A stretch of 64,000 bases of DNA from an uncultured Gammaproteobacteria bacterium (GTDB taxonomy: Bacteria > Patescibacteriota > Patescibacteriia > Magasanikbacterales > UBA922). The notes beneath the pieces were generated by a model, which searched no databases, was not told where the DNA came from, and saw only the letters and a program-made list of their open reading frames with translations. Shown piece by piece: positions 2,445 to 21,300 of this stretch (positions are counted from its first letter, which is position 1; the number at the start of each line of letters is the position of its first letter). The DNA lies in the NCBI GenBank assembly GCA_964566225.1, contig CAZMHV010000001.1, positions 85,963 to 149,962 on the forward strand, read 5' to 3'. Position numbers and translations under genes: made by a program.

Positions 2445-2469
2445 AAATACATATTTCAGAATCAACAGA

Positions 2470-2497
2470 AAACCCCTTTGAAAAGAAGGGGTTTTTC
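2470..2497 (+). terminator. Rho-independent terminator after dnaE
   Basis: Perfect inverted repeat aaacccctt / aaggggttt followed by a T-run, immediately 3' of the dnaE stop. Confidence 0.6.
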
Positions 2498-2499
2498 TA

Positions 2500-2528
2500 T
2501 TGACTTTTTTATAAAATTGTGCTATACT
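2500..2528 (+). promoter_or_regulatory. Sigma70-like promoter TTGACT-17-TATACT driving the high-GC ATPase gene
   Basis: TTGACT at 2500-2505, a 17-nt spacer, then TATACT at 2523-2528. It lies about 40 nt upstream of the ATG at 2571, which has a GGGGGGA Shine-Dalgarno. Confidence 0.5.
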
Positions 2529-2570
2529 CTCGACAATTTATCCACGGACGTCCACACAAGGGGGGACCGA

Positions 2571-3170
2571 ATGAGTATTCCTGTGGTTGCTTTCACGGGC
2601 GCGCCTTGCGGAGGCAAGAGCATGGCCGTAGAGGCGATTCGGCAGCAGTTTGCCGGCAAGGTCGTAGTGGTGCCAGAAATGGCCTCCACCATCCTCGCAG
2701 GCTTTCCGCTGCCTGGTCGGGACCTCGAGTGGTCCTCGGAGTGGCAAGATTGCCTTCAAAGGACCATCCTGCGTGCGCAGCTCGAAGCTGAGGAGGCATG
2801 GCGCGCTGCAGCCATTCACCAGAATGCCAAGATCATTCTGTGTGATCGGGGAGTTCTCGATGGGGCAGCCTATCGGGGTGTGAGTGCTCAGCAGTTCTGC
2901 GTTGAATTCGGCATTGATCTCAACGAGGTGCATGCCCGCTACACGGGGGTTTTGCACCTCCAGTCGCTGGCTGAATTTTCGCCCGAACTCTATACCGCGA
3001 ACATGGCCTCGAACCCTCACCGGTTTGAGAGTGCTGCTCGCGCTCAGGAGCTCGATCGGGCGCTTCTGTTGGCCTGGAGGGGCCATTCGAATCACGAGTT
3101 CATTCCGGCAGATGCCAGTATTGGACGAAAGCTCGACCAAGTCGTCGAATTCGTCCAGCATCTCATCTGA
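2571..3170 (+). CDS. P-loop NTPase, AAA_28-like putative kinase/ATPase, in a high-GC cassette
   Basis: Walker A motif AFTGAPCGGKS at the N-terminus. Codons are GC3-rich, unlike the flanks. The longer ORF from 2478 would run through the promoter and AT-rich DNA, so the ATG at 2571 with its SD is preferred. Confidence 0.6.
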   Translation: MSIPVVAFTGAPCGGKSMAVEAIRQQFAGKVVVVPEMASTILAGFPLPGRDLEWSSEWQDCLQRTILRAQLEAEEAWRAAAIHQNAKIILCDRGVLDGAAYRGVSAQQFCVEFGIDLNEVHARYTGVLHLQSLAEFSPELYTANMASNPHRFESAARAQELDRALLLAWRGHSNHEFIPADASIGRKLDQVVEFVQHLI

Positions 3171-3193
3171 ATAGAGGAACGTCCTCGCGGCCT

Positions 3194-3216
3194 GGGGGTG
3201 TCCGTCAACACCCCCC
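3194..3216 (+). terminator. GC-rich hairpin (ggggtgt...acacccc) after the high-GC ATPase gene
   Basis: Inverted repeat 24 nt after the stop. It has no T-tract, which is the style seen in high-GC organisms. Confidence 0.4.
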
Positions 3217-3235
3217 TTCCAATCTTACTCAACAA

Positions 3236-3272
3236 AAAAGAGACACGTTACAGGTCTCTTTTCTTTTTTTTC
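3236..3272. terminator. Bidirectional intrinsic terminator (agagacacgttacaggtctct flanked by A/T runs)
   Basis: Hairpin with an A-run on its 5' side and a T-run on its 3' side. It sits between the converging high-GC ATPase gene (+) and tsaD (-). Confidence 0.55.
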
Positions 3273-3276
3273 TAAT

Positions 3277-4347
3277 CTATTCACCCAGCTCCCACTGCGG
3301 ATCCGCTTTCACATCCTTCCAAGAAATAAATTCTTTTTTTACGGCCTTATAATATCCAGCAATCGCAATCATGGTCGCATTATCCATGGAGTACTTTGAT
3401 TCTGGAATCAAAAATTTGGTACCAGGAAATTGCTCGTCCACTGCCTGCTGCAACGTCTCACGCAATTTTTTGTTGGCACTCACACCACCACCCAGCACAA
3501 TAGTTTTGGGTTTGTATTCTGCTGCCGCGCGCATAGTTTTAATTACCAGCACATCAATAATTGCTTGTTCAAATGATGCACAAAAATCATTGATGGTAGG
3601 GGACTGTGGCGTCACTCCAAATACTCCTGCAGGCAAATTCAAAGCATTGGTATTCACTGCACTCAACTGATTATCTCGCAGCCAATACAAAGCAGCAGTT
3701 TTGAGTCCAGAAAAACTAAAGTCATAGTGAGCGTCCTTCATCATCGGTCGTGGAAATTGAATCGCACTGGTTTTTCCTTCCATTGCAAACTTTGAAATTT
3801 TTGGTCCACCTGGATAATCAAACCCAAGAAGTTTCGCAGCTTTATCAAAACATTCACCAGCGGCATCATCTACCGTCTTACCAATTTTTTCATATTCCCC
3901 CTGACTTTTCATGACAATCAATTCTGTATGTCCACCTGAAACAATGAGTCCCAAAGCAGGGAATTCAATTTTTGCATTGTTACTATTCAGCTCAACCGAA
4001 TGTATATGCCCCTCAATATGGTTGACGCCCACCATGGGCACATCCCACAAATACGATAATGTTTTGGCTGCATCCACGCCAACGAGCAGCGCAGTCATGA
4101 GCCCTGGCCCACTCGTCACTGCAATCACATCAGGCTTCTCTTGTCCAGCCATCACTTCTTCAACGAGAGGCACAATAAACTCTGCATGCGCGCGAGCCGC
4201 CACTTCTGGCACCACACCACCATATTTTTTGTGAATTTCAATTTGGCTCGCAGTTTTTTCGGCAAGCACAACAAAGCCCACTTCAGAGGCTTCAAGAAGA
4301 GAAACTGATGTGTCGTCGCACGATGATTCAATGCCGAGTATTTTCAT
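3277..4347 (-). CDS. tsaD: tRNA N6-adenosine threonylcarbamoyltransferase TsaD (Kae1/Gcp family)
   Basis: 356 aa with the MKILGIESSCDDTSV N-terminus and the two His metal site (HIEGH). Full-length ASKHA-fold match. Confidence 0.9.
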   Translation of the reverse strand: MKILGIESSCDDTSVSLLEASEVGFVVLAEKTASQIEIHKKYGGVVPEVAARAHAEFIVPLVEEVMAGQEKPDVIAVTSGPGLMTALLVGVDAAKTLSYLWDVPMVGVNHIEGHIHSVELNSNNAKIEFPALGLIVSGGHTELIVMKSQGEYEKIGKTVDDAAGECFDKAAKLLGFDYPGGPKISKFAMEGKTSAIQFPRPMMKDAHYDFSFSGLKTAALYWLRDNQLSAVNTNALNLPAGVFGVTPQSPTINDFCASFEQAIIDVLVIKTMRAAAEYKPKTIVLGGGVSANKKLRETLQQAVDEQFPGTKFLIPESKYSMDNATMIAIAGYYKAVKKEFISWKDVKADPQWELGE

Positions 4348-4775: not shown

Positions 4776-4800
4776 AGTATTATTTTAGTAGTATAGCTCT

Positions 4801-4857
4801 GTTTTCAACTCATGAAAAATTTGAGTTCAAAACGGAGCTGGAGTGTGTGGACTCCAG
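4801..4857 (-). terminator. Two tandem hairpins between the GNAT-ASCH gene stop and the ASCH gene
   Basis: gttttcaactcatgaaaaatttgagttcaaaac at 4801-4833 and ctggagtgtgtggactccag at 4838-4857, both inverted repeats just 3' of the minus-strand stop at 4901. Confidence 0.4.
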
Positions 4858-4900
4858 ACCCCCCCTTTCATTTTGTTTGTTCGGCCACACCCGATCTAGG

Positions 4901-6241
4901 TCATCGCATCCTGGGCTCCACCTCCAGAACGTATACCCCGAGACGCTCCTTCTCGGGAGGGTAGATCGTCGTCAGGACTTCGAGCACCTGCGCTTTGACT
5001 TGGCCAGGCACGATTTTGCCCGCGTCTTCCACCTCGAGCATCGACTCGAAGCTGTCATACCGGCGAATCGCACGGACGGTGATGATCCCCGAGGCATCAT
5101 TCGTCTCGAGTTGGATACGTTCACCCGCCCGGATGCTCCGGATGTTGTCGTAGCCGACTCGTACTTCGAGTGTCTTCCTTCCCGACATGATGTCGAGGTA
5201 GAAGCGCCGTTTGACTCGCATCGTTCTTGGCATGATGTCCTCCAGGTAGTAGCCCCATTGCTGGGTGCTGTAGTCTTCGTGGTAGGCCGCGGGCATCATC
5301 GCATCGAGGGACCATCCCCTGCGTTGCAGGACGATAGTTTCCGCGACCGTTGGGACGAGGTGTGTGTAGAGTTTTCTCCCGTACGGCCTCAGATAGTTCG
5401 GCAAGTCAGTGAGCATCGCCGCAAAAGCGTCGGGGTCACTGGCCACACAGGGCATGAGCTTGATGGGCTGCCCCTTTTTGGGAGTAGCCCCTGCCACACC
5501 ACGCACAGTGTTGGTGAGGTCAACAGCGACGAAGATCAGTTTGAACTTGAGGTTCACTTCTCCTGTGCTGCGACGCCTATATCCTTCAAAGAGGGCATCC
5601 ACCCACTGTCGATCGACTCCGCGGAAGTAGTTTGGAAACGTCCCGTCGAGGATCAGCCGATAGACTCCATCGCGGTGGTGCTCTTCGAATGGCAGTACCG
5701 AAATGCTTCGGTTATCCGGCATTTCCTCATCCACTTCTGTTGTGGAGAGGGTTTTGTAGAGCATCATCTCTGTCACTCCGGGTTTGTAGTGACTCTGAGA
5801 TCGCCCTGCGGGGATGTATCCTTTCTTTCTGAAGAAGGAAATTGCCGAATGGTTCTGTTCTGCCACGGTACAGTAGATTTGCCTTGCTCCACGCTCTCTC
5901 GCGTACTGTTCGGCATGTGCCGTCAGTTCACTTCCACAGCCGTTCTGGGCTTGGAATGCGGGAGCGATGATGAGTGGGCTGATTTTCCAGGTGCCCTGTC
6001 GTTTTCGGACGATGTGAATCATCCCGATTTGGGTCGTACCGTCCACGAGGATGAACATCCTCTGCTCGGCAGAGAAGTGTCCTACGTGATCTTTACCTCC
6101 ACAGATGTGCGTCTCGAAGATCCGAGCCGCATGCGCACGGTGGTCGCCATCGTAGTACGGGGCCAGGGCGTTATCCATGAGGTCTGAGACGAACTGGAAG
6201 TCTGTCTCTTGAGCTTCGCGAATTTTTCGTCCTTCTGACAT
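4901..6241 (-). CDS. Three-domain protein: N-terminal GNAT acetyltransferase, central unknown domain, C-terminal ASCH domain (high-GC cassette)
   Basis: The N-terminal ~165 aa carry the GNAT acetyl-CoA motif (QAQNGCGSEL, then ARERGARQIYCTV). The C-terminal ~110 aa carry the ASCH motif SGRKTLEVR and a YqfB-like end (GVYVLEVEP). GC3 is strongly elevated. The mirror ORF on the plus strand (4847..6187) is a compositional shadow. Confidence 0.7.
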   Translation of the reverse strand: MSEGRKIREAQETDFQFVSDLMDNALAPYYDGDHRAHAARIFETHICGGKDHVGHFSAEQRMFILVDGTTQIGMIHIVRKRQGTWKISPLIIAPAFQAQNGCGSELTAHAEQYARERGARQIYCTVAEQNHSAISFFRKKGYIPAGRSQSHYKPGVTEMMLYKTLSTTEVDEEMPDNRSISVLPFEEHHRDGVYRLILDGTFPNYFRGVDRQWVDALFEGYRRRSTGEVNLKFKLIFVAVDLTNTVRGVAGATPKKGQPIKLMPCVASDPDAFAAMLTDLPNYLRPYGRKLYTHLVPTVAETIVLQRRGWSLDAMMPAAYHEDYSTQQWGYYLEDIMPRTMRVKRRFYLDIMSGRKTLEVRVGYDNIRSIRAGERIQLETNDASGIITVRAIRRYDSFESMLEVEDAGKIVPGQVKAQVLEVLTTIYPPEKERLGVYVLEVEPRMR

Positions 6242-6486
6242 TTGGAGCCTTTCTTGGGGTTATGCGAAGAAACGAAATTGTACCCTCATGCTGGGATTAG
6301 CAAATTGGGTTGCCACAGGATAACACCTTGTCAACGGAATGTCAATTTCTCATAGGATTGTTTCAAAATAAAACAATGAATGAAAGGCATCTCACTCATT
6401 GTTACAATTTACAGATGTGAGAGTAAATGGTATCTTATAATAAAAATAATATATTCATTTAAAAAATACCCATAAATATAGGTTAT

Positions 6487-7071: not shown

Positions 7072-7332
7072 TTATTCTGCAAGAGATGCTTCTACACTCT
7101 GTACCAATTCTGCGTGAGGTAATTTATAACCTTCCATTTTGAGTACAAGATTTTGTACGTAATCAGGGGCACTGTTAACTGACGTATCTCCTTTTAGAAT
7201 TTCTAAAAGAGTTTTTAAATCTGCTTTAGCTTCTCTTTTTAAATCTTCATCTAAGCGTCTTTTCGCAGATTCTGGACTTTCTGGGGGTACTTTAAATGTC
7301 ATTGCAGCATCAAATGGATGTTCTATACTCAT
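7072..7332 (-). CDS. Hypothetical small protein (86 aa)
   Basis: Only the part of ORF 7072..7551 that does not overlap the tRNA can be coding. The start is taken at MSIEHPFD. Confidence 0.3.
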   Translation of the reverse strand: MSIEHPFDAAMTFKVPPESPESAKRRLDEDLKREAKADLKTLLEILKGDTSVNSAPDYVQNLVLKMEGYKLPHAELVQSVEASLAE

Positions 7333-7397
7333 ATTTTTAAAATTTAAGAATAATATTAAATAGAGTTTTGTTGTATAAACAAAGTTTTTAATTGTTG

Positions 7398-7469
7398 TAG
7401 CACCACGGGGAATCGAACCCCGATTTGGTGGATGAGAACCACCTGTCCTAACCATTAGACGATGATGCC
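7398..7469 (-). tRNA. tRNA-Glu (anticodon CUC)
   Basis: The reverse complement folds as a cloverleaf. It has a 7-bp acceptor stem (GGCATCA/TGGTGCT, two G-U pairs), a GTCTAATGGTTAGGAC D-arm, an anticodon stem GGTGG/CCACC with loop TTCTCAT, and a GGGGTTCGATTCCCC T-arm. No CCA is encoded. Confidence 0.7.
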
Positions 7470-7507
7470 GTATGTGGGGGAAAGTATACGGTTTTTTATC
7501 TTGTTTG

Positions 7508-7888
7508 TCAATGTTTTTTCTTGTTTTTTGAAAGACGAAAAACAATATCAATGAGTTTAAAAATCACCCATACAAAAGGTGAAAAAACAGTAAAAATTAT
7601 ATTTACTATTTTATTAAGAAGAGAAAATTCTCTTTCAAATGGAGTATCTCTATTTAAGACAAAGTCTGTCTCTCTAAAGAGTTTTTCAATCGTTTCTGGA
7701 GTTATAAAACGGACATCGTATACTATTTCAATTTTTTCATCATGAATTTCTACAGAAATATCGGGTAGTAACGAATTTACAAAAGAAAAAAGTTTATTTC
7801 TGTCATATGGGGGAGAAATTTTGTAACACACGAATTTTTTATTTTTATTGGGAAGAGTAATAAAAAACATAAAATAATATAGAGACAC
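7508..7888 (-). CDS. Hypothetical protein (126 aa) with a C-terminal hydrophobic segment
   Basis: AT-rich ORF with no recognisable domain. Confidence 0.35.
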   Translation of the reverse strand: MSLYYFMFFITLPNKNKKFVCYKISPPYDRNKLFSFVNSLLPDISVEIHDEKIEIVYDVRFITPETIEKLFRETDFVLNRDTPFEREFSLLNKIVNIIFTVFSPFVWVIFKLIDIVFRLSKNKKKH

Positions 7889-7892
7889 GCTT

Positions 7893-7937
7893 GCTGGGTT
7901 GGTGAACAGTACTATGAAGTTTGTTCACCAACCCAGC
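7893..7937 (-). terminator. Perfect 16-bp-stem hairpin (gctgggttggtgaaca...tgttcaccaacccagc) 3' of the high-GC lipoprotein gene
   Basis: 16-bp perfect inverted repeat with a 13-nt loop, 25 nt downstream of the minus-strand stop at 7962. It is GC-rich and has no T-tract. Confidence 0.5.
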
Positions 7938-7961
7938 TGAAAGGAAAACGACGAGCCTCAC

Positions 7962-8672
7962 TCAGATGGCGAGGCCGACCATCACCACCGGTGCCGCGAT
8001 TTCCGAGATGACGGCCGCCGTTGCAGCACCAACACCCACGGCCACAGCGATGTTGTAGATGTTGTCTCTCACCCATCGCACGGACGGAGGCTCACACATG
8101 CAGAGGCTGAAAGGTATCACACTCTCGTACACACCGAAGCAGAGTCGTCCGTTCTGTCTGTACTTCATGAAGTGGATGTCGAACACCTGGCGGAAGTTTC
8201 CAGCACGGTTGCTCCCGTAGTTGAGTCGGATCGCGTAGTAGTCCGCGGTCCGAGTACACACGGGGAAGTCGTGCCTTCCTCCCGAGGATGTCAGCCTGTA
8301 TTGCCCGACGGCGACGTCGAGGGGGGACTTCACTTCCGTATACGACAGCGGCTCTGTGGACGTTTCTTCTCTGAAGAGGTTGTCCAGCTCGGTGCTGATG
8401 TTCGGGCCGAAGCTGTACACGATGGTGTAGCCGTTGTTCGAAGCCCAATCGGTCAGACTGGGCAGGTAGGACTTGAAGTCCTCCAGCGTGTTGAACTCGA
8501 TCTTGTCCGGGAGCGTCGCCCTGAACTCACCGTTGGTGTCGGTGTCCACCTCGATGAGGTAGGTCTGCTCCGCCGTGCTGGAGGAGTCGTCGTGGGTGCT
8601 GGCCGAGGAGGGGTTGATCCGCTGCTCACAACCGAGCAAGCACAGAATCGCAAACAACAGTTTGAATTTCAT
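7962..8672 (-). CDS. Lipoprotein of unknown function (high-GC cassette)
   Basis: N-terminus MKFKLLFAILCLLGC has a lipobox LLGC. It is followed by a Ser/Thr/Asp-rich linker and a C-terminal Gly/Ala/Val-rich hydrophobic tail. GC3 is strongly elevated, and the antisense ORFs 8172..8756 and 8092..8448 are shadows. Confidence 0.55.
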   Translation of the reverse strand: MKFKLLFAILCLLGCEQRINPSSASTHDDSSSTAEQTYLIEVDTDTNGEFRATLPDKIEFNTLEDFKSYLPSLTDWASNNGYTIVYSFGPNISTELDNLFREETSTEPLSYTEVKSPLDVAVGQYRLTSSGGRHDFPVCTRTADYYAIRLNYGSNRAGNFRQVFDIHFMKYRQNGRLCFGVYESVIPFSLCMCEPPSVRWVRDNIYNIAVAVGVGAATAAVISEIAAPVVMVGLAI

Positions 8673-8844
8673 GGTTGGACTCTCTCTGTGGGTTGGGGTA
8701 CCTGTTGGAGTACTCAATTTGCGGGGTATTCGATAGATTTTCCTTTCGTTGAATAATTTTGAATGGCCAATGGACACAACATGTGTCCATGAGCACAATG
8801 TCTATAAATAATCATATCATAAGTTTAGATTTTTACAAAAATAA

Positions 8845-12650: not shown

Positions 12651-12723
12651 ACCATTTGGTAGTGAATGGTGTTTTAACCGTGCCTTCTCATACACAAAGA
12701 AGGCCACTACCATGGAGGAGTGA

Positions 12724-13818
12724 TTGCGAAATCCGCGTCCCATTCAAGTGATGCGTGTTTTTTCTGAACCTGACAAGCCCCTGGAGATTCAGTTCTCCGA
12801 CGTCTTGCCGGGAACCAAGTTCGAGAGCTGGCAGTGGATGGTGTTCACTGGTCAGCTCGGTGTGGCTCGTGAAGTGGGGGACAACGGTCAACCCGTTACG
12901 TTCTTCGCTGTCAAGACCTATGATCTCGATGTGGTGCGCAATGGCAAGCGCATGTACTTCAAGTTTCATGCTCCCAAGGGCATCGAGGACCTGCCGCCCC
13001 TCTTTGTGGAGGCTCATGCGGACACGCGTGTGGTCTCTGACGTCGATGGTCCGAAGGAGGTCACGTCGTTCACACACTGCCTCTGTGCGAGTGTGTGGCT
13101 GCTTTCTTCTTCGGCCAGTGTGGTCGTCTCCGAGAATCGTCTCCGGCAGCGTGCCCACGAAGCTCGGGTCGTCACCGAGCATGCACAGGCAGTCCAGGCG
13201 ATGCGTGATCGTGTAGGCACGCTCACTCCAATGCAGCTGGCTCCCTACATGCAGCTGTGGGGTCAGTTCAAAGGCAAAAAGACCTCGGATTCTGCCAAGC
13301 AGCAGATCGTGCGTCAGGCCATTGGTGCCTGGGCACGGGCTCAGGGTATGCATGAAACCGAGAGTCTGCTCGAGGCAGTCGGTGACCAGCTCTCTGATCT
13401 CGTGAAGGGCCTCACGGATTACTACCAGGAGTACATCTCCGTCGACACGAACGGGCAGAACAAGGATACTCTCACCAAGCTGCTGCGTGCACATCTGCGG
13501 CCGCTTCTCGAAGATCTGCATCATCCGCTGCAAGATCACCATGTCGATGGCATTGTGTCTTGTCTCGTCTCCAACGGTCGGTTCCCTCGCCGGTTTCGCC
13601 GTATGGTGGGTGACGAGATGCACTCGGTGATGGTGGCGGTGAATCGGGCGATGAAACGGGAGTTGGTCTCTGCTGCACCTGCAGCACAATCAACTGCGCC
13701 CGAGGAGAAAGCAACTCCTCCTCGGCCTGTCGCCGCACGCAGGGGAGGGGGCATTCGTCTCAATCCGAAGAGACTCCCTGGTCTCAGGCGGGACACAGCA
13801 CCTCCCCAAGGCGGCTGA
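12724..13818 (+). CDS. Hypothetical protein, 364 aa (high-GC cassette inside the polysaccharide cluster)
   Basis: TTG start with a strong SD (GGAGGAG, 5 nt upstream). Codons are GC3-rich and the composition is balanced. The antisense ORF 12688..13689 is His/Arg-rich and looks like a shadow. No recognisable domain. Confidence 0.55.
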   Translation: MRNPRPIQVMRVFSEPDKPLEIQFSDVLPGTKFESWQWMVFTGQLGVAREVGDNGQPVTFFAVKTYDLDVVRNGKRMYFKFHAPKGIEDLPPLFVEAHADTRVVSDVDGPKEVTSFTHCLCASVWLLSSSASVVVSENRLRQRAHEARVVTEHAQAVQAMRDRVGTLTPMQLAPYMQLWGQFKGKKTSDSAKQQIVRQAIGAWARAQGMHETESLLEAVGDQLSDLVKGLTDYYQEYISVDTNGQNKDTLTKLLRAHLRPLLEDLHHPLQDHHVDGIVSCLVSNGRFPRRFRRMVGDEMHSVMVAVNRAMKRELVSAAPAAQSTAPEEKATPPRPVAARRGGGIRLNPKRLPGLRRDTAPPQGG

Positions 13819-13835
13819 CCACCGCCATTCACATC

Positions 13836-13852
13836 TGCCCCCTGGAGGGGGA
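13836..13852 (+). terminator. GC hairpin (ccccctggaggggg) after the high-GC unknown gene
   Basis: Short perfect inverted repeat about 20 nt after the stop, with no T-tract. Confidence 0.3.
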
Positions 13853-14027
13853 GCAGGACTGCAAGGGGGTAGTTCACTACCTCCGGTTCGCCAAGATTCT
13901 TATGTTAGGAATTTTGGCGAATTTTTTTTCTAGACCAGAGGGGCGGGACGTGATAGAATATGGATACAAAATTATTTATTGTCTATCTGCCTTGCTTCGT
14001 AAGTCAGATACACTCCTTCGTTTATCT

Positions 14028-17362: not shown

Positions 17363-18283
17363 TTAGTTGAGAGTATCGCCCACAAAATTTTGGTATCCAC
17401 TCAAAAATGCTTTGGCATCCACTGCAGTTTTGCCTTCAAGTTGGAGTGTTCGTATTTCGACTGATCCGGTTGTACATCCAATGTACAATTTTCCATTTTG
17501 TGAAATTACTTGTCCGGGCAGTGCCGTAACATCACTTGGTCGCACGTCAGTAAGCTTGAGTCGTTTTTCTCCCCACATGGTCCACAGACCTGGCCATGGA
17601 GTGAGACCTCGATACTGATTGTATACTTCCTGTGCCGATTTTTTCCAGTCTACTCTGCCGTTTTCACGAGTAAGAAGTGTGGTGAGCGTTGCCTCTGCGT
17701 TGTTTTGTGGTTGTTTTTCAAGTGTTCCATCAATGTATAAAGGTATGGCTTCAAGCAGTGCTTTTGCGCCAATTTTGGCCAAGCGAGCATCAAGTTCAAG
17801 GTATGTTTCATCTGAAAGAATATCAATTTCTTTTTGGAGGAGTATTGGTCCTGTGTCCATTCCTTCATCCATTTGCATTATGGTGACTCCTGTTTTTGTT
17901 TCGCCATGCCACAAGGCAAACTGAATTGGCGATGCTCCACGGTATTTGGGCAAAAGAGATGTGTGTACATTGAGGGTGCCAAATTGTGGTGCATCAATAA
18001 TTGATTTTGGAATAATGCGACCATACTGAGCCACCACACTGAGGTCACCTGTCACGGATTCAAAATCAAAATTTTTGAGTGAAGCTGGTTGTGATACAGG
18101 AATATTGTATTTGTCTGCCAAAACTTTGACTGGTGGGGGAGTGAGCACTTGTTTGCGACCTACTGGTTCATCAGGCTGTGTCACCACATGTGCCACTTCA
18201 ATAAACGGAGCATCAATGAGTGCTTGCAAAATTGTAACGGCAAATTGGTGTGTGCCAAAAAAGGTAATTTTTGTTTTGTTCAT
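17363..18283 (-). CDS. fmt: Methionyl-tRNA formyltransferase
   Basis: N-terminus KITFFGTHQFAVTILQAL. The formyltransferase core and the C-terminal tRNA-binding domain are both present. Confidence 0.9.
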   Translation of the reverse strand: MNKTKITFFGTHQFAVTILQALIDAPFIEVAHVVTQPDEPVGRKQVLTPPPVKVLADKYNIPVSQPASLKNFDFESVTGDLSVVAQYGRIIPKSIIDAPQFGTLNVHTSLLPKYRGASPIQFALWHGETKTGVTIMQMDEGMDTGPILLQKEIDILSDETYLELDARLAKIGAKALLEAIPLYIDGTLEKQPQNNAEATLTTLLTRENGRVDWKKSAQEVYNQYRGLTPWPGLWTMWGEKRLKLTDVRPSDVTALPGQVISQNGKLYIGCTTGSVEIRTLQLEGKTAVDAKAFLSGYQNFVGDTLN

Positions 18284-18317
18284 ATTCAGATTGTTCTACA
18301 ATAAAGAGAGATATATT

Positions 18318-18340
18318 TCAATCTCTCCTTGTATACCTTT
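18318..18340. promoter_or_regulatory. Inverted repeat GAGAGAT-N8-ATCTCTC, a candidate operator between fmt and the PadR-like gene
   Basis: 7-8 bp arms with an 8-nt spacer, the geometry of a dimeric winged-helix operator. It lies between divergently oriented genes. Confidence 0.3.
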
Positions 18341-18411
18341 ATCCTATCACAAAAAAGAAACCCTTTCAAGCTAAAAAATTGCTTGATTTCAGTACAATTT
18401 TTTCAAATCTC

Positions 18412-18439
18412 TTGACAAAATATGGGTGAAGAATATACT
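18412..18439 (+). promoter_or_regulatory. Sigma70-like promoter TTGACA-16-TATACT driving the PadR-like gene
   Basis: TTGACA at 18412-18417 and TATACT at 18434-18439, followed by an AGGGGAAAG SD and the ATG at 18475. Confidence 0.5.
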
Positions 18440-18474
18440 TGTTCTACTTTCAAACCAAGGCAGGGGAAAGTTTG

Positions 18475-18783
18475 ATGAGTATCGAGGTGGGGACACTGAT
18501 CCTCTGTGCTCTCACTTCTGGAGAGCGCACGCTTGCTGATTTGATGGAGATTCTTCTGAAGCTGAGTCGTGGCATGCAGGCGTTTTCACCTGCGGCGATC
18601 AATATTCAGCTTCTAGAGTGGAAGAACGCCGGCTTCATCGAGTATGAGGCCAGAAATCCGCTCACCGGGTCCATAGCCAAGCTGAAACCTGAGGGAAGGC
18701 ACTACCTGCTCAAGTCACCCGAGATGGTGTTCGTGCGTACTGCACTGAACCGCCTCGCCGAGGAGAATCAAGGCGAGACCTAG
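18475..18783 (+). CDS. Small winged-helix transcriptional regulator, PadR-like (high-GC cassette between def and fmt)
   Basis: 102 aa. GERTLADLMEIL...SRG...SPAAINIQLLEWKNAGFIEYE fits the PadR pattern (recognition helix followed by a wing and the L-x-x-L-E-x-x-G-x-I motif). GC3 is elevated. Confidence 0.45.
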   Translation: MSIEVGTLILCALTSGERTLADLMEILLKLSRGMQAFSPAAINIQLLEWKNAGFIEYEARNPLTGSIAKLKPEGRHYLLKSPEMVFVRTALNRLAEENQGET

Positions 18784-18808
18784 GCGTTCCCCCTCGAACG
18801 TCGTCAAG

Positions 18809-18835
18809 TGAGACCTGTCCACCGTGTGGGCAGGT
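18809..18835 (+). terminator. GC hairpin (gacctgtccac cgt gtgggcaggtc) after the PadR-like gene
   Basis: 11-bp inverted repeat with one mismatch, 25 nt after the stop. Confidence 0.35.
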
Positions 18836-18854
18836 CAATGTGTTTTTAAACAAA

Positions 18855-18881
18855 AAAGTCTGTTATTCGTACAGACTTTTT
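18855..18881. terminator. Bidirectional terminator (agtctgttattcgtacagact with flanking A/T runs) at the 3' end of def
   Basis: Inverted repeat with an A-run upstream and a T-run downstream, abutting the def stop at 18882. Confidence 0.45.
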
Positions 18882-19394
18882 TTAATCCACATCGTATATG
18901 TCTATGGCTTTGTCAATAAAGAGTATACCATCGAGGTGGTCGACTTCGTGTTGAATAACACGGGCAAAGAATTTTTTGGCTACAAAGTTGAGGGGGTTTC
19001 CATGTTCGTCCATGGCATTGACTTGGATTTCAGTGTAACGTTTTACCTTGCCATATTGTTTGGGAACAGACAGACATCCTTCGGTATCCCAGGCAGTTTT
19101 TTTGCTCAGGCGTTCCCATACTGGGTTGACCAGTACTAAGTCTTTGGTTGCTTTGGATTTTTTTTTGGATTCACCTGGTCGTTCATCCATGTGCACGGCT
19201 TCTTTGCCAATTACACAAACACGAATATTGTGTCCTACTTGTGGTGCAGCGAGGCCAATGCCGTCGTCCCCATACATGGTAGGAATCATATCACGAATAA
19301 GTTTTTGAACATTGTTTGATAACAAAACATCACGATCAATTTCTACTGATCGCTCTCGTAAACTTGGTGTAGGGAGTTTGACGATGGGTGACAT
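18882..19394 (-). CDS. def: Peptide deformylase
   Basis: All three PDF motifs are present: GIGLAAPQ, GCLSVP and QHEVDHLDG. Confidence 0.9.
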   Translation of the reverse strand: MSPIVKLPTPSLRERSVEIDRDVLLSNNVQKLIRDMIPTMYGDDGIGLAAPQVGHNIRVCVIGKEAVHMDERPGESKKKSKATKDLVLVNPVWERLSKKTAWDTEGCLSVPKQYGKVKRYTEIQVNAMDEHGNPLNFVAKKFFARVIQHEVDHLDGILFIDKAIDIYDVD

Positions 19395-19395
19395 A

Positions 19396-21300
19396 CTAAG
19401 GATGTAACAGGGTGTTTGGGTTCAAATCAATTTTCCAACCATTTGGGATATGTGAGTGTAGTTCTAATACAATTTCTTGCCAATTTTTTGCTTCAATTTT
19501 CATTATTATACCATACCACCAACGCCCACGGAAATATTTTGGTTGCATTTCAATTGGGTCAGTGAGTATAGCCTGTTTTTCATATTTTGTCAACACAACT
19601 TCCATCGCACGTTTGACTTTTTTTGCTTCATATAGAGAATTTTGAGCATCTTCTGCACCATAAAAGTATCGTACCAAAAATCCATATGGGGGGTAGTGAA
19701 GTCCTTGTCGACTACTCAAATTTGTCCGATAAAACCGATCTGGTTGAGAGAGAGATTTTATGAGCAGCTGTTTGGTATCCCAGGTTTGAATAATATATTG
19801 ACTTTGGGGTGCACGAATATACTGGAGTTCTTGAATCAGATCCCAGGCATATTCTGAGGCTTTGAATTCGGGCAAAGAAACTTGCCGATCAAGATCAAGC
19901 ATGACAATGCATGAAGTTTTTGTAGGGTCTATATACTCAAACGCTTTTTCTGTGCCAATAATCACCTTGGGCACAGGAGTATTTGGCAACTCGTTTTTAT
20001 CAATTTCTTGTTCTCCTTCAATTCGGAGAATCTGTTTTTGACTTCCTTTGAGAAGTTCTTTTACTCTTTTTTCGACACTTTCTGTCCCTACTCCTTTGAA
20101 CTCCAGGACCACACTCCCACATTGGTTACACGAGAGGGGAACAGGTTTTTGAATTTTGCAGTAATGACAAGACAAAATTTTTTGATCCGCATGATATACA
20201 AAAGGGAGTGAGCAGGTAGGACATTTTTCTTCATAACGACAATCTTTACAAATCATAACAGAACCCGCACCTTTACGGTTGATAAACAAAAAAATATCTC
20301 CGGGTGAGTTTTGTACCAAGGTTTCCACTTCTTCACACAGTGGTGACAGATTCCCTGCTTTTCGTTCGTCACGCATGTCTTTGATTCGTGGTAAAAAGTT
20401 TTTATTAATACTGGTAAATTGGAGAGTTTGCTCTGCATTGGTATTGGCATACCCGCCCTTGTATAGACGATAATAACTCTCCATACTTGGACAATAGCTC
20501 ATGTGAATTTCCGTGGCTCCACTATACTGTGCTATGAGTGGAGTAATATCTTTGATATGAAAACGAGGAGCTTGGTCAGCATTTTTGTGTTCCTTGTGAT
20601 GTTCATAGTCTACAATAATGGTATCAAGTTGCATGAGCGGCAAAAAGGCACCACTTCGAGTAGAGAGAACAATATTTTTTTCTTTATTTCGTATGGCCGT
20701 CCAAATTTTTCGTTGTTCTATTGTTTTGAGCTCACCATGCCAAAACACGGTTTGCTTTTGCATTTCTTTGGGCAAAAAGTCAAATACTGTTTGGAGGTAT
20801 TGTTTTTCGGGAACAAAAATAATGGTCTGACCGTGTATGGACTCAACAATACATTGTTGGTGTTGGAGAGTATTTGAATATTTTTTGTAGAGAGGAAGTT
20901 GTCTCTGGTGTGAACGAGTTGGCAAGGGGGGGACAGATAACTGCGCTGTGGTACGCGGCGTCAAGGAAGGCAGTGCATTTTCACACAGAGTAGAAAGGGC
21001 TACTCCATAGAGTTGGCTTACTTGTTTCAAAAATACAAGGTATTCGCGGGATAAAAATGGTTGTGGAAAAATAATTTGAGAAATTGGTTTTATTTTTGTT
21101 TTTTCTAAGGTATCAGTTTGTTCAAGCGAAAAAATAATCCCCAAGGTTTGGGAATTTCGAAAGGGAATTTGTACGAGTTGCCCAACTTGAAGAGTTTCCT
21201 TCAGTTCAGGCGGCACCAGGTACGTAAAAGTATCAAACGCCTTGGGGAGTCGACGTAGGAGTATGAGAGAAGCCAGCACAGTTTGTATGTTAAAAAACAA
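19396..21300 (-). CDS. priA: Primosomal protein N' (PriA), apparently lacking the Walker A motif
   Basis: Cys-rich zinc-binding insert CKDCRYEEKCPTCSLPFVYHADQKILSCHYCKIQKPVPLSCNQCGS. Motif-II-like LSTRSGAFLP...IIVDYEHH. No GxGKT motif found by eye. Confidence 0.7.
   Translation of the reverse strand: MFFNIQTVLASLILLRRLPKAFDTFTYLVPPELKETLQVGQLVQIPFRNSQTLGIIFSLEQTDTLEKTKIKPISQIIFPQPFLSREYLVFLKQVSQLYGVALSTLCENALPSLTPRTTAQLSVPPLPTRSHQRQLPLYKKYSNTLQHQQCIVESIHGQTIIFVPEKQYLQTVFDFLPKEMQKQTVFWHGELKTIEQRKIWTAIRNKEKNIVLSTRSGAFLPLMQLDTIIVDYEHHKEHKNADQAPRFHIKDITPLIAQYSGATEIHMSYCPSMESYYRLYKGGYANTNAEQTLQFTSINKNFLPRIKDMRDERKAGNLSPLCEEVETLVQNSPGDIFLFINRKGAGSVMICKDCRYEEKCPTCSLPFVYHADQKILSCHYCKIQKPVPLSCNQCGSVVLEFKGVGTESVEKRVKELLKGSQKQILRIEGEQEIDKNELPNTPVPKVIIGTEKAFEYIDPTKTSCIVMLDLDRQVSLPEFKASEYAWDLIQELQYIRAPQSQYIIQTWDTKQLLIKSLSQPDRFYRTNLSSRQGLHYPPYGFLVRYFYGAEDAQNSLYEAKKVKRAMEVVLTKYEKQAILTDPIEMQPKYFRGRWWYGIIMKIEAKNWQEIVLELHSHIPNGWKIDLNPNTLLHP

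What the first reader, a model, noticed from the sequence alone, without database searches (positions are those of the whole stretch)
17363..19394. The conserved def-fmt pair is split by a high-GC PadR-like gene with its own consensus promoter and a candidate operator palindrome
priA-def-fmt is contiguous in most bacteria. Here a 600-bp insert lies between def and fmt. It contains a TTGACA-16-TATACT promoter, a 102-aa winged-helix (PadR-like) gene with a strong SD, and a GC hairpin terminator. A GAGAGAT-N8-ATCTCTC inverted repeat sits between the regulator gene and the fmt start, the right geometry for a dimeric wHTH operator. A bidirectional terminator now separates def from fmt. The insertion therefore probably uncouples fmt transcription from def and may place fmt under the control of the acquired regulator.
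Basis: partly seen in the sequence, partly recalled or inferred. Interest (0 to 1): 0.55.

Follow-up and report, generated by a model that had tools for sequence, protein, structure and literature searches.

The report
Decayed regulator–toxin cassette splitting def–fmt
In this candidate-phyla-radiation bacterium the usually adjacent def and fmt genes are separated by the leftover of an accessory gene cassette: a small, GC-rich, probably DNA-binding orphan gene, its two-way promoter and a 32-base scrap of a lost Fic toxin gene. This is an ordinary kind of genome tinkering, and the proposed operator palindrome is that scrap.

Summary
The spacer holds a 102-aa ORF on the opposite strand (18475-18783; GC 0.55 against 0.41), a TTGACA-16-TATACT site, a GC hairpin, a bidirectional def terminator and the palindrome GAGAGAT-N8-ATCTCTC (18306-18327).

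- **Acquisition holds.** Three relatives have def and fmt contiguous or 115 bp apart. Others carry unrelated AT-rich genes at this junction.
- **The key relative is L084 (fmt 74% identical).** At the same place it has a second GC-rich small ORF on the opposite strand and the same divergent promoter pair, followed by ficA-fic and then fmt.
- **The palindrome is a fic relic.** It is 29/32 identical to sequence inside that fic gene. It now sits in the likely fmt leader, just downstream of what was the fic-operon promoter.
- **"PadR-like" is unproven.** There is no Pfam hit. Only weak, mutually consistent winged-helix signals appear, and the structure model is poor (pLDDT 52).
- **The ORF is an orphan.** It occurs in two strains only, with dN/dS about 1.

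Unexplained: the insert is 5-10 times less diverged than neighbouring synonymous sites, and its high GC3 persists. Control of fmt by the protein remains untested.

The parts
17363..18283 (-). fmt (methionyl-tRNA formyltransferase), 306 aa
   Evidence: Pfam Formyl_trans_N 2.2e-43 and Formyl_trans_C 1.2e-25. dN/dS against L003 is 0.12.
18300..18331 (-). 32-nt relic of a fic toxin gene. It contains the palindrome GAGAGAT-N8-ATCTCTC (arms 18306-18312 and 18321-18327). As RNA it forms a hairpin at the start of the likely fmt leader.
   Evidence: 29/32 identity to L084 about 5547-5578, inside the fic ORF 5392-5997. Score 49 against shuffles 18.8+-2.4, z 12.7. Leader hairpin folds at -13.6 kcal/mol, z -3.0. 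Unique in the window, 0.01 expected.
18329..18369 (-). Promoter-like site facing fmt: -35 TTGAAA (18369-18364), 17-nt spacer, TG-extended -10 TAGGAT (ends 18341), within a conserved block TTTTGTGATAGGATAAAGGTATACAA (18354-18329).
   Evidence: Found by the promoter scan. The same pair of hexamers, spacing and TG occurs in L084 upstream of ficA-fic. The block is 23/26 identical in L084 and unique in the window.
18373..18403 (.). Perfect 9-nt inverted repeat AAAAAATTG-N13-CAATTTTTT between the two -35 boxes. It is an alternative operator candidate, or a pair of UP-like A/T tracts.
   Evidence: The perfect copy is unique. Matches with up to 2 mismatches: 4 against 0.48 expected. Not present in L084.
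18412..18439 (+). Promoter-like site of the small ORF: TTGACA-16-TATACT.
   Evidence: Matches 11 of 12. Identical hexamers and spacing in L084. Hexamers are unchanged in L003, with 3 substitutions in the spacer.
18475..18783 (+). ORF102: GC-rich orphan gene, probably a small winged-helix DNA-binding protein.
   Evidence: GC1/2/3 is 0.57/0.40/0.67. Only itself and an 89% variant are found among 5.8e9 proteins. Weak winged-helix signals: HTH_5 E 0.07, TK0271 E 0.06, TcaR E 0.07 and TA0346 E 0.12. AlphaFold2 topology is H-H-H-b-b-H at pLDDT 52, and the top Foldseek hits are PadR family at E 0.05-0.5. dN/dS is 0.97.
18812..18836 (+). GC-rich hairpin downstream of ORF102 (terminator-like).
   Evidence: Terminator scan. 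Folds at -19.8 kcal/mol, z -4.2. One substitution in L003 (C to A at 18824), in the loop.
18852..18882 (.). Bidirectional terminator-like hairpin flanked by A and T runs. It abuts the def stop codon.
   Evidence: 12-nt perfect arms. Folds at -12.6 and -12.8 kcal/mol on the two strands, z -5.3 and -3.6. The only L003 substitution is in the loop.
18882..19394 (-). def (peptide deformylase), 170 aa
   Evidence: Pfam Pep_deformylase 1.3e-47. dN/dS is 0.03.
19396..21300 (-). priA, 634 aa, directly upstream of def
   Evidence: Pfam PriA_3primeBD 3e-18 and Zn_ribbon_PriA.

Best explanation
The 598-bp spacer is the decayed remnant of an accessory cassette sitting at a variable def-fmt junction in a clade of Candidatus Magasanikbacteria-like Patescibacteria.

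The fuller form survives in relative L084. It reads: def terminator, a small GC-rich winged-helix-like gene on the opposite strand, a back-to-back pair of sigma-70-type promoters, a ficA-like antitoxin, a Fic toxin (candidate defence gene), then fmt.

In the window's lineage two deletions removed ficA and fic. They left 32 nt of fic, and that piece happens to be the palindrome. The small gene, both promoters and the terminators were kept.

**Shown:** the anatomy; absence of the insert from other relatives; homology of the promoter block; the fic origin of the palindrome.

**Inferred:**
- fmt is now transcribed from the former fic-operon promoter, because def is followed by a terminator.
- The relic forms a 5'-terminal leader hairpin on the fmt transcript.
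- The small protein is a dimeric winged-helix repressor or autoregulator of the divergent promoter pair. If it still works, it would affect fmt by binding in the promoter region rather than at the palindrome.
For: - **Synteny.** PBP-Memo-priA-def-fmt-Wzy-GT2 is conserved in 10 related contigs. The def-fmt junction has five states:
  - contiguous or 115-bp gap: L085, L086, L091;
  - a roughly 170-aa AT-rich membrane-like gene: L087, L088, L092 and one JGI contig;
  - two AT-rich genes: L090;
  - small GC-rich ORF plus ficA-fic: L084;
  - small GC-rich ORF only: window and L003.
- **L084 small ORF.** It has a 95-99 aa opposite-strand ORF with GC3 0.80 at the same position.
- **L084 promoters.** It has the same TTGACA-16-TATACT and TTGAAA-17-TG-TAGTAT divergent pair, with block identity 23/26.
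- **L084 Fic module.** Pfam Fic 1.4e-17, PADLOC PDC-S04 9e-54, motif HPFREGNGRTIR. The 49-aa upstream ORF carries SSKMEG, which fits the (S/T)xxxE(G/N) inhibitory motif as I recall it.
- **Palindrome origin.** 29/32 identical to fic-internal sequence, z 12.7, with no similarity to the L085 or L086 spacer.
- **The two small proteins.** They align colinearly over their full length: SW score 42 against 25.5+-4.65, z 3.5, 24-25% identity. Neighbouring priA is only 43% identical between the same genomes.
- **Winged-helix signals.**
Against: - BLASTP finds no similarity between the two small proteins, so they may not be orthologues.
- ORF102 shows dN/dS 0.97 against L003. Function of the protein is therefore not demonstrated.
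- High GC3 (0.67 and 0.80) persisting in both lineages is hard to reconcile with long vertical inheritance in a genome with GC3 about 0.35.
- The whole insert is only about 4% diverged from L003, while adjacent synonymous sites have dS 0.22-0.43. Simple vertical descent does not explain this.
- No transcript data exist. The promoters and terminators are consensus matches only.
- Only one relative, L084, documents the fuller cassette.
Confidence: 0.55

Rival explanations
1. An acquired PadR-like dimeric regulator binds the GAGAGAT-N8-ATCTCTC palindrome and thereby places fmt under its control.
For: - The palindrome is unique and non-random and unchanged in L003.
- It lies about +5 to +28 from the predicted fmt transcription start. 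A bound repressor there could block RNA polymerase.
- The gene is arranged divergently to fmt.
- Fold matches to the PadR family are consistent, though weak.
Against: - The same sequence sits inside the fic coding region of L084, 300 bp from the promoter, next to a different small protein that is about 25% identical.
- There is no Pfam PadR hit.
- The ATGT-N8-ACAT motif I recall for PadR and LmrR operators is absent from the spacer.
- The site does not overlap the regulator's own promoter.
- dN/dS is about 1.
Confidence: 0.12
2. ORF102 is a functionless orphan on its way to pseudogenisation, stranded when the fic operon it served was deleted. The only lasting effect of the cassette is that it donates a constitutive promoter and a leader hairpin to fmt.
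For: - dN/dS is 0.97, with no frame showing purifying selection.
- 11 amino-acid changes occur in 102 residues between strains whose def differs at 3 nonsynonymous sites.
- There are no homologues anywhere else.
- GC3 is lower (0.67) than in the L084 counterpart (0.80), as expected for incipient amelioration.
Against: - The ORF, its promoter hexamers, SD region and terminator stems are intact in both strains, with no indel in 598 bp.
- The predicted recognition helix and wing (aa 39-54, 56-66, 68-79) are unchanged. 7 of the 11 changes cluster in aa 18-34.
- The insert is far more conserved than neutral sites.
- With only 17 substitutions, dN/dS has little power.
Confidence: 0.3
3. The cassette is a small mobile or exchangeable unit. 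It was delivered to the def-fmt junction more recently than the window and L003 lineages split, or it was swapped between them. The GC-rich gene is replaced from a high-GC gene pool downstream of a fixed AT-rich promoter platform.
For: - The insert is about 4% diverged, against dS 0.22-0.43 in the immediately adjacent fmt and def codons. P<=0.002 for ORF synonymous sites and about 1e-16 for non-coding sites.
- Homology between the window and L084 ends at the -10 box. The downstream genes are barely alignable, yet both are GC-rich.
- The junction is occupied by different cargo in different relatives.
- The window carries four more single-gene high-GC islands.
Against: - No integrase, transposase, direct repeats or shared flank motifs occur at this or the other islands.
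- No copy is found in viral, plasmid or metagenome collections.
- No low-divergence tract extends into the flanks, as homologous replacement would leave.
- The colinear weak similarity of the two small proteins fits descent.
Confidence: 0.15
4. The GC-rich stretch is not a protein gene but a structured non-coding RNA or another nucleotide-level element. This would explain uniform conservation without codon-position bias.
For: - Substitutions are equally frequent at synonymous and nonsynonymous sites, and the whole insert is conserved.
- GC-rich islands in AT-rich genomes are a classic non-coding RNA signature (general knowledge).
Against: - GC by codon position is clearly periodic, in both the window and L084, in the frame of the ORF.
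- There is no Rfam match in the window except a tRNA.
- Helix-turn-helix-like sequence and predicted topology recur in both proteins.
- The other GC-rich islands encode recognisable Pfam domains.
Confidence: 0.03

Closest known systems
PadR family, short subfamily (LmrR of Lactococcus lactis, Rv3488, B. fragilis PadR-like, TA0346)
   Same: About 100 aa. Predicted order is three helices, a two-stranded wing and a long C-terminal helix. These are the top Foldseek hits (TM 0.41-0.50) and one of the best PDB profile hits.
   Different: No Pfam PF03551 hit at E<=1. All matches are below significance, and the model has pLDDT 52. No ATGT-N8-ACAT-type site in the spacer.
MarR family winged-helix repressors (e.g. 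TcaR, 4fx0)
   Same: The best PDB profile match (E 0.07) aligns the recognition helix, wing and following helix. MarR genes are often divergently transcribed from their target, as here (general knowledge).
   Different: MarR proteins are about 140-150 aa with N- and C-terminal dimerisation helices. ORF102 is 102 aa. There is no Pfam MarR hit.
Class I Fic toxin-antitoxin modules (VbhT/VbhA type) and the PADLOC candidate defence gene PDC-S04
   Same: The L084 cassette has a 49-aa ORF with the SxxxEG inhibitory motif followed by a Fic protein with HPFREGNGRTIR. The window keeps 32 nt of that fic gene.
   Different: The window has no fic or ficA ORF left. A separate, divergently transcribed winged-helix gene is not, to my knowledge, part of described FicTA modules.
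Three-component toxin-antitoxin loci with a separate regulator (omega-epsilon-zeta, paaR-paaA-parE)
   Same: A dedicated small DNA-binding protein encoded next to an antitoxin-toxin pair, as in L084 (by analogy; general knowledge).
   Different: In those systems the regulator is co-directional and its role is demonstrated. Here it is divergent and untested.
Canonical def-fmt operon (E. coli def-fmt; priA-def-fmt in Firmicutes)
   Same: The same genes in the same order and on the same strand. Adjacency is seen in 57 of 77 genomes sampled here.
   Different: 598 bp with two terminator-like hairpins, an antisense gene and a new promoter are interposed.

Membership tests
PadR family (Pfam PF03551) | Significant match to the PadR profile | tested here: not met
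   hmmscan against Pfam-A at E<=1 lists only HTH_5 (E 0.073) for ORF102. The L084 counterpart gives only GntR at E 0.078.
PadR family (Pfam PF03551) | Winged helix-turn-helix followed by C-terminal dimerisation helix or helices | tested here: inconclusive
   Two AlphaFold2 models give an H-H-H-b-b-H topology, but at pLDDT 52 and 44. The top Foldseek PDB hits are LmrR, Rv3488 and PadR-like proteins at E 0.05-0.5, with none at or below 0.001.
PadR family (Pfam PF03551) | Dimer binding to an inverted-repeat operator in its own or a neighbouring promoter | not testable with these tools
   Candidate inverted repeats exist at 18373-18403 and 18306-18327. The second is a fic relic. The ATGT-N8-ACAT motif is absent from the spacer.
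Winged-helix DNA-binding superfamily (MarR/PadR/ArsR-like) | Sequence or profile similarity to known winged-helix regulators over the recognition helix and wing | tested here: inconclusive
   HTH_5 E 0.073. TK0271 family E 0.063. Profile A2 against PDB: TcaR 0.072, TA0346 0.12, 4fx0 0.53, all aligned on the same region. Each is sub-threshold, but they agree with one another.
Fic toxin gene | Intact ORF with the Fic domain and the HxFx(D/E)GNGRxxR motif | tested here: not met
   The window has only 32 nt homologous to fic. No Fic ORF lies between 18284 and 18474. L084 does have one: Pfam 1.4e-17, motif HPFREGNGRTIR.
def-fmt operon | def and fmt genes present, same strand, def upstream | tested here: met
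   Pfam hits and coordinates.
def-fmt operon | Adjacent genes co-transcribed without an intervening terminator | tested here: not met
   A 598-bp gap with terminator-like hairpins at 18852-18882 and 18812-18836. Transcription itself was not measured. Relatives L085 and L086 also have a hairpin after def.
Mobile element or integron-like cassette | Recombinase gene, terminal or direct repeats, or shared recombination sites at the cassette borders | tested here: not met
   No such ORF in the insert. No significant shared sequence among the flanks of the five GC-rich islands. No copies in viral, plasmid or metagenome collections.
Rfam RNA families | Covariance-model match at the gathering score | tested here: not met
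   Only tRNA-Glu at 7397-7469 in the whole window.

The most novel reading that the evidence does not exclude
The def-fmt junction is one of several sites in this CPR genome where single GC-rich genes are captured, and perhaps exchanged, behind host-type AT-rich promoters. There are five such sites within 19 kb, and some of the genes have actinobacterial-looking relatives. High GC3 would be kept, and the whole cassette held at about 4% divergence, by an unknown nucleotide-level constraint or by recurrent gene flow from a high-GC partner organism. That partner could be the episymbiont's host. If so, these islands would record the host association, and ORF102 would represent a fast-evolving, host-derived regulator family.
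Probability: 0.1. Interest if true: 0.7.

Novelty: new member of a known kind. Interest (0 to 1): 0.33.

Why it matters
The case shows how a core translation-related gene pair can be rewired by gain and partial loss of an accessory regulator-toxin cassette. fmt probably inherited a promoter and a leader hairpin that evolved for a Fic operon.

It is also a cautionary example. A neat palindrome next to a regulator gene can be a scrap of coding sequence. GC-rich orphan genes in AT-rich CPR genomes can be missed or called on the wrong strand, as happened in L084. That makes them look more unique in protein databases than they are.

Two observations may matter for understanding gene flow into ultra-small symbiotic bacteria, but they are not explained here. 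One is the series of GC-rich single-gene islands. The other is the anomalously low divergence of this insert.

Tried and rejected
- **Family assignment by sequence.** Pfam, NCBIfam, PHROGs and PADLOC gave nothing significant for ORF102.
- **Homologue searches.**
  - 5.8e9 clustered proteins, with the single sequence and with profile A2, returned only the protein itself and the L003 variant.
  - The exhaustive phmmer search of 1.8e9 representatives returned only EPTP-repeat proteins P0003 and P0004 (E 5e-6). Their score is the sum of 4-5 copies of one 39-residue repeat at 33-38% identity. I treat this as a chance resemblance inflated by repetition.
  - IMG/VR, JGI metagenomes, plasmids and phages gave nothing.
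- **Conserved promoter block.** A metagenome scan for it gave one unrelated chance hit, L089.
- **Structure.** AlphaFold2 without a real alignment gave pLDDT 52 and 44. The L084 sequence could not be added.
- **GTDB species representatives.** The search with fmt returned only hits of 41-49% identity from other phyla. It served only for the def-fmt adjacency baseline.
- **Recombination tract.** dS in the fmt and def blocks abutting the insert is not reduced, so this was rejected as the cause of the low divergence.
- **Shared flank motifs among the five GC-rich islands.** None found.
- **Non-coding RNA reading.** No Rfam hit, and clear codon periodicity.
- **Ancestral-spacer origin of the palindrome.** There is no significant similarity to L085 or L086. 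Only a 14-nt AGGGTTTCTTTTTT match to the def terminator arm appears, z 4.6.
Full report
**1. What is there**

On the minus strand the window reads priA (19396-21300), def (18882-19394), a 598-bp spacer (18284-18881), then fmt (17363-18283). All three genes have strong Pfam matches.

The spacer contains the following, given in plus-strand coordinates.
- **Palindrome:** GAGAGAT-N8-ATCTCTC at 18306-18327. It is unique in the window, with 0.01 matches expected by chance.
- **Minus-strand promoter-like site facing fmt:** TTGAAA-17-TG-TAGGAT, 18369-18341.
- **Perfect inverted repeat:** AAAAAATTG-N13-CAATTTTTT, 18373-18403.
- **Plus-strand promoter-like site:** TTGACA-16-TATACT, 18412-18439, matching 11 of 12.
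- **102-aa ORF on the plus strand:** 18475-18783, antisense to def and fmt.
- **GC hairpin:** 18812-18836, -19.8 kcal/mol.
- **Bidirectional hairpin:** A-run, hairpin, T-run at 18852-18882, abutting the def stop.

The ORF has GC 0.547 in a window of GC 0.407. Its GC at codon positions 1/2/3 is 0.57/0.40/0.67, while fmt and def have GC3 of 0.33 and 0.38. Two details need correcting: the gene lies on the opposite strand, and the Shine-Dalgarno (AGGGG, 8 nt upstream) is moderate rather than strong.

**2. Organism and baseline**

The nearest named fmt homologues (55-60% identity) are from Candidatus Magasanikbacteria and other Patescibacteria. The genome is also in NCBI on a 325-kb contig.

Among 77 loci from diverse phyla fetched with fmt, def lies directly upstream on the same strand in 57. 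Adjacency is therefore the norm. The spacer is not an assembly artefact. It is identical in two further assemblies (L001, L002) and is present in a strain about 93% identical from an unrelated run (L003).

**3. Relatives show a variable junction**

The block PBP-Memo-priA-def-fmt-Wzy-GT2 is conserved in ten related contigs, but the def-fmt junction differs among them.

| State of the def-fmt junction | Contigs |
|---|---|
| 114-115 bp gap | L085, L086 (fmt 67-68% identical) |
| def and fmt overlap by 4 nt | L091 |
| A roughly 170-aa AT-rich membrane-like gene | L087, L088, L092, one JGI contig |
| Two AT-rich genes of unknown function | L090 |
| 1288-bp insert (described in section 4) | L084 (fmt 74% identical) |
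| GC-rich ORF only | window, L003 |

The insert is thus lineage-specific, and the junction is a recurrent landing place for accessory genes. The relatives without an insert already have a terminator-like hairpin after def. Partial uncoupling of fmt from def may therefore predate the insert.

**4. L084 explains the anatomy**

- **Order of elements.** After def, L084 has a 14-bp-arm palindromic terminator. A GC-rich stretch follows (0.59, GC3 0.80). The gene caller read this stretch on the def strand, but on the opposite strand it encodes a 95-99 aa protein with a helix-turn-helix-like pattern.
- **Promoters.** Next comes the same divergent promoter pair as in the window: TTGACA-16-TATACT and TTGAAA-17-TG-TAGTAT. 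A block is 23/26 identical to window 18329-18354.
- **Fic module.** Next is a 49-aa ORF carrying SSKMEG, which fits the (S/T)xxxE(G/N) Fic-antitoxin motif as I recall it. It is followed by a 201-aa Fic protein (Pfam 1.4e-17, motif HPFREGNGRTIR, PADLOC candidate defence family PDC-S04 9e-54), and then fmt.
- **Palindrome origin.** The window's palindrome region (18300-18331) is 29/32 identical to L084 about 5547-5578, inside the fic ORF at the codons for RQGEIEINLSLLF. The score is 49 against 18.8+-2.4 for shuffles, z 12.7. It has no significant similarity to the L085 or L086 spacer.

The simplest reading is that the window's lineage once had the L084-type cassette and lost ficA and fic by two deletions. 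What remained is a 32-nt piece of fic directly downstream of the former fic-operon promoter and 17 nt upstream of the fmt ATG.

**5. What the small ORF is**

No library assigns it. Among 5.8 billion clustered proteins it has only itself and the 89% L003 variant.

An exhaustive phmmer search adds only EPTP-repeat proteins. Their score comes from summing one short repeat, and I discount them.

Weak signals all point to a winged helix.
- HTH_5 at E 0.07.
- TK0271 activator family at E 0.06.
- The profile against PDB gives TcaR (MarR family) 0.07, TA0346 (PadR-like) 0.12 and a MarR repressor 0.5, all aligned over the putative recognition helix and wing.
- AlphaFold2 gives the order H-H-H-b-b-H, but at pLDDT 52 and 44.
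- Foldseek's top PDB hits are uniformly PadR-family proteins (LmrR, Rv3488) at E 0.05-0.5 and TM 0.41-0.50.

I therefore call it a probable small winged-helix protein. 'PadR-like' is a reasonable guess about its fold, but family membership failed the one sequence test available.

The L084 protein aligns with it colinearly (24-25% identity, SW z 3.5, p about 0.007). BLASTP sees nothing. Because priA is only 43% identical between these two genomes, distant orthology is plausible but unproven.

**6. Evolutionary signals and what they do not explain**

Neighbouring genes, compared with L003, have dS 0.20-0.39 and dN/dS 0.03-0.15. ORF102 has dS 0.059, dN 0.057 and dN/dS 0.97, and no frame shows purifying selection.

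Eleven of its 17 substitutions fall in 18527-18588, which gives 7 of the 11 amino-acid changes, at residues 18-34. The predicted recognition helix and wing are almost unchanged.

The non-coding parts are 97-98% identical. The low divergence stops at the insert borders: fmt codons 1-60 have dS 0.22 and def codons 115-171 have dS 0.43. It is highly significant, with P<=0.002 for ORF synonymous sites and about 1e-16 for non-coding sites.

None of the simple explanations fits all of this. Purifying selection on a protein does not. A recombination tract reaching into the flanks does not. Neutral decay does not.

A further puzzle is the high GC3 in both the window and L084. It sits next to an AT-rich, homologous promoter block, and it has persisted over a divergence at which amelioration should be complete. 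I record both as unexplained. They keep alive a rival in which the cassette, or just its GC-rich gene, is exchanged more recently than the host lineages split. However, I found no recombinase, repeats, shared flank motifs or external copies.

**7. How it most likely works**

*Shown*
- def is followed by a hairpin with a U-run.
- The ORF has its own near-consensus promoter and a GC hairpin.
- A second promoter-like site with an extended -10 faces fmt and is conserved with L084, where it precedes ficA-fic.

*Inferred*
- fmt is transcribed from that promoter, starting near 18334.
- The fic relic then forms a hairpin at the very 5' end of the fmt leader (-13.6 kcal/mol, z -3.0). Such a hairpin could stabilise the mRNA or do nothing at all.
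- The small protein, if active, acts on the divergent promoter pair.
- The inverted repeat between the two -35 boxes (18373-18403) is geometrically the better operator candidate. It could equally be a pair of UP-like A/T tracts.

Control of fmt by the protein through the palindrome is unlikely but not excluded, because the site would lie at about +5 to +28 of the fmt promoter.

**8. Comparison with known systems, and verdict**

The pieces are all of known kinds.
- A small winged-helix regulator, closest in shape to short PadR proteins and to MarR.
- A class-I-like FicTA or candidate defence module, present in the relative L084.
- Intrinsic terminators and sigma-70-type promoters.
- HGT into Patescibacteria, including transcriptional regulators, is documented (PMC12455944).

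What is particular here is the position inside the def-fmt pair, the decay series visible across relatives, the orphan status of the protein, and the compositional and divergence anomalies.

I rate it a new member of a known kind, of modest interest. The acquisition inference is correct. The operator inference is most likely wrong. The regulatory claim is untested.

Noticed in passing
window 2451-3300, 4801-6350, 7851-8800, 12651-14000, 18451-18900: Five single-gene islands of GC 0.55-0.63 lie in the first 19 kb of a window with GC 0.41, and none in the remaining 45 kb. They encode an AAA_28 ATPase (2478-3170 +), a GNAT+ASCH protein (4901-6241 -), a 278-aa protein of unknown function (7962-8798 -), a 364-aa protein of unknown function (12724-13818 +) and ORF102. 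All show coding-type GC1/2/3 periodicity and have their own hairpins. No flank sequence is shared among them.
   Followed up: partly
window 12724-13818 (+): The 364-aa GC-rich gene between the flippase and the GT4 glycosyltransferase is absent from relatives L084, L085, L086 and L088, where those two genes abut. L003 starts inside its 3' end (73/80 identical). It has no Pfam, NCBIfam or PADLOC family.
   Followed up: partly
window 4901-6241 (-) and 2478-3170 (+): In the plasmid collection, all 13 tblastn hits of the GNAT+ASCH protein are Actinobacteria (Streptomyces, Rhodococcus, Amycolatopsis, Prauserella; 23-37% identity). The best hit of the AAA_28 protein is Miltoncostaea. This is a weak lead to high-GC actinobacterial donors. 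The database is biased.
   Followed up: partly
L084 4787-5113 (+) versus 4799-5098 (-): In the GC-rich stretch of L084 the public gene call lies on the def strand (95-108 aa, no family). The opposite strand carries the helix-turn-helix-like ORF with GC3 0.80. Such wrong-strand calls hide these genes from protein databases and exaggerate the orphan status of ORF102.
   Followed up: yes
window 18286-18321 (-): A possible 11-codon upstream ORF lies in the fmt leader: SD-like AAGGAG at 18330-18325, a TTG start only 3 nt later, peptide MKYISLYCRTI, and a stop TGA 2 nt before the fmt ATG. fmt itself has no obvious SD. This could mean translational coupling or nothing. L003 is identical here, so there is no evolutionary test.
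   Followed up: no
window 18527-18588: A cluster of 11 substitutions in 62 nt lies between the window and L003 (7 amino-acid changes, residues 18-34 of ORF102). The rest of the 598-bp insert differs at only 13 positions. This is either a patch of diversifying change or a micro-conversion.
   Followed up: partly
window 18475-18783 versus P0003 and P0004: Residues 41-79 of ORF102 resemble single EPTP/EAR beta-propeller repeats (33-38% identity). This gives E 5e-6 in the 1.8e9-protein search only because 4-5 repeats add up. Probably chance.
   Followed up: yes
window 7397-7469 (-): tRNA-Glu (CTC) lies inside a mechanically listed 159-aa ORF (7072-7551 -). That ORF is therefore probably spurious, at least in its upstream (5') part.
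   Followed up: no
L085 5894-5917, L086 equivalent, window 18350-18363: The 14-nt string AGGGTTTCTTTTTT is the right arm plus T-run of the def terminator in L085. It recurs in the window within the spacer of the fmt-facing promoter (z 4.6). The promoter may have been built partly from the ancestral def terminator.
   Followed up: partly
L084 8337-8576 and 9294-10454; L090 1434-2995 and 5376-5933: Other junctions of the same conserved gene block also vary between relatives. Examples are a CBU_0592-like gene, a 386-aa gene between GT2 and GT4, and extra genes after Wzy. Accessory insertions between core genes appear to be common in this clade.
   Followed up: no
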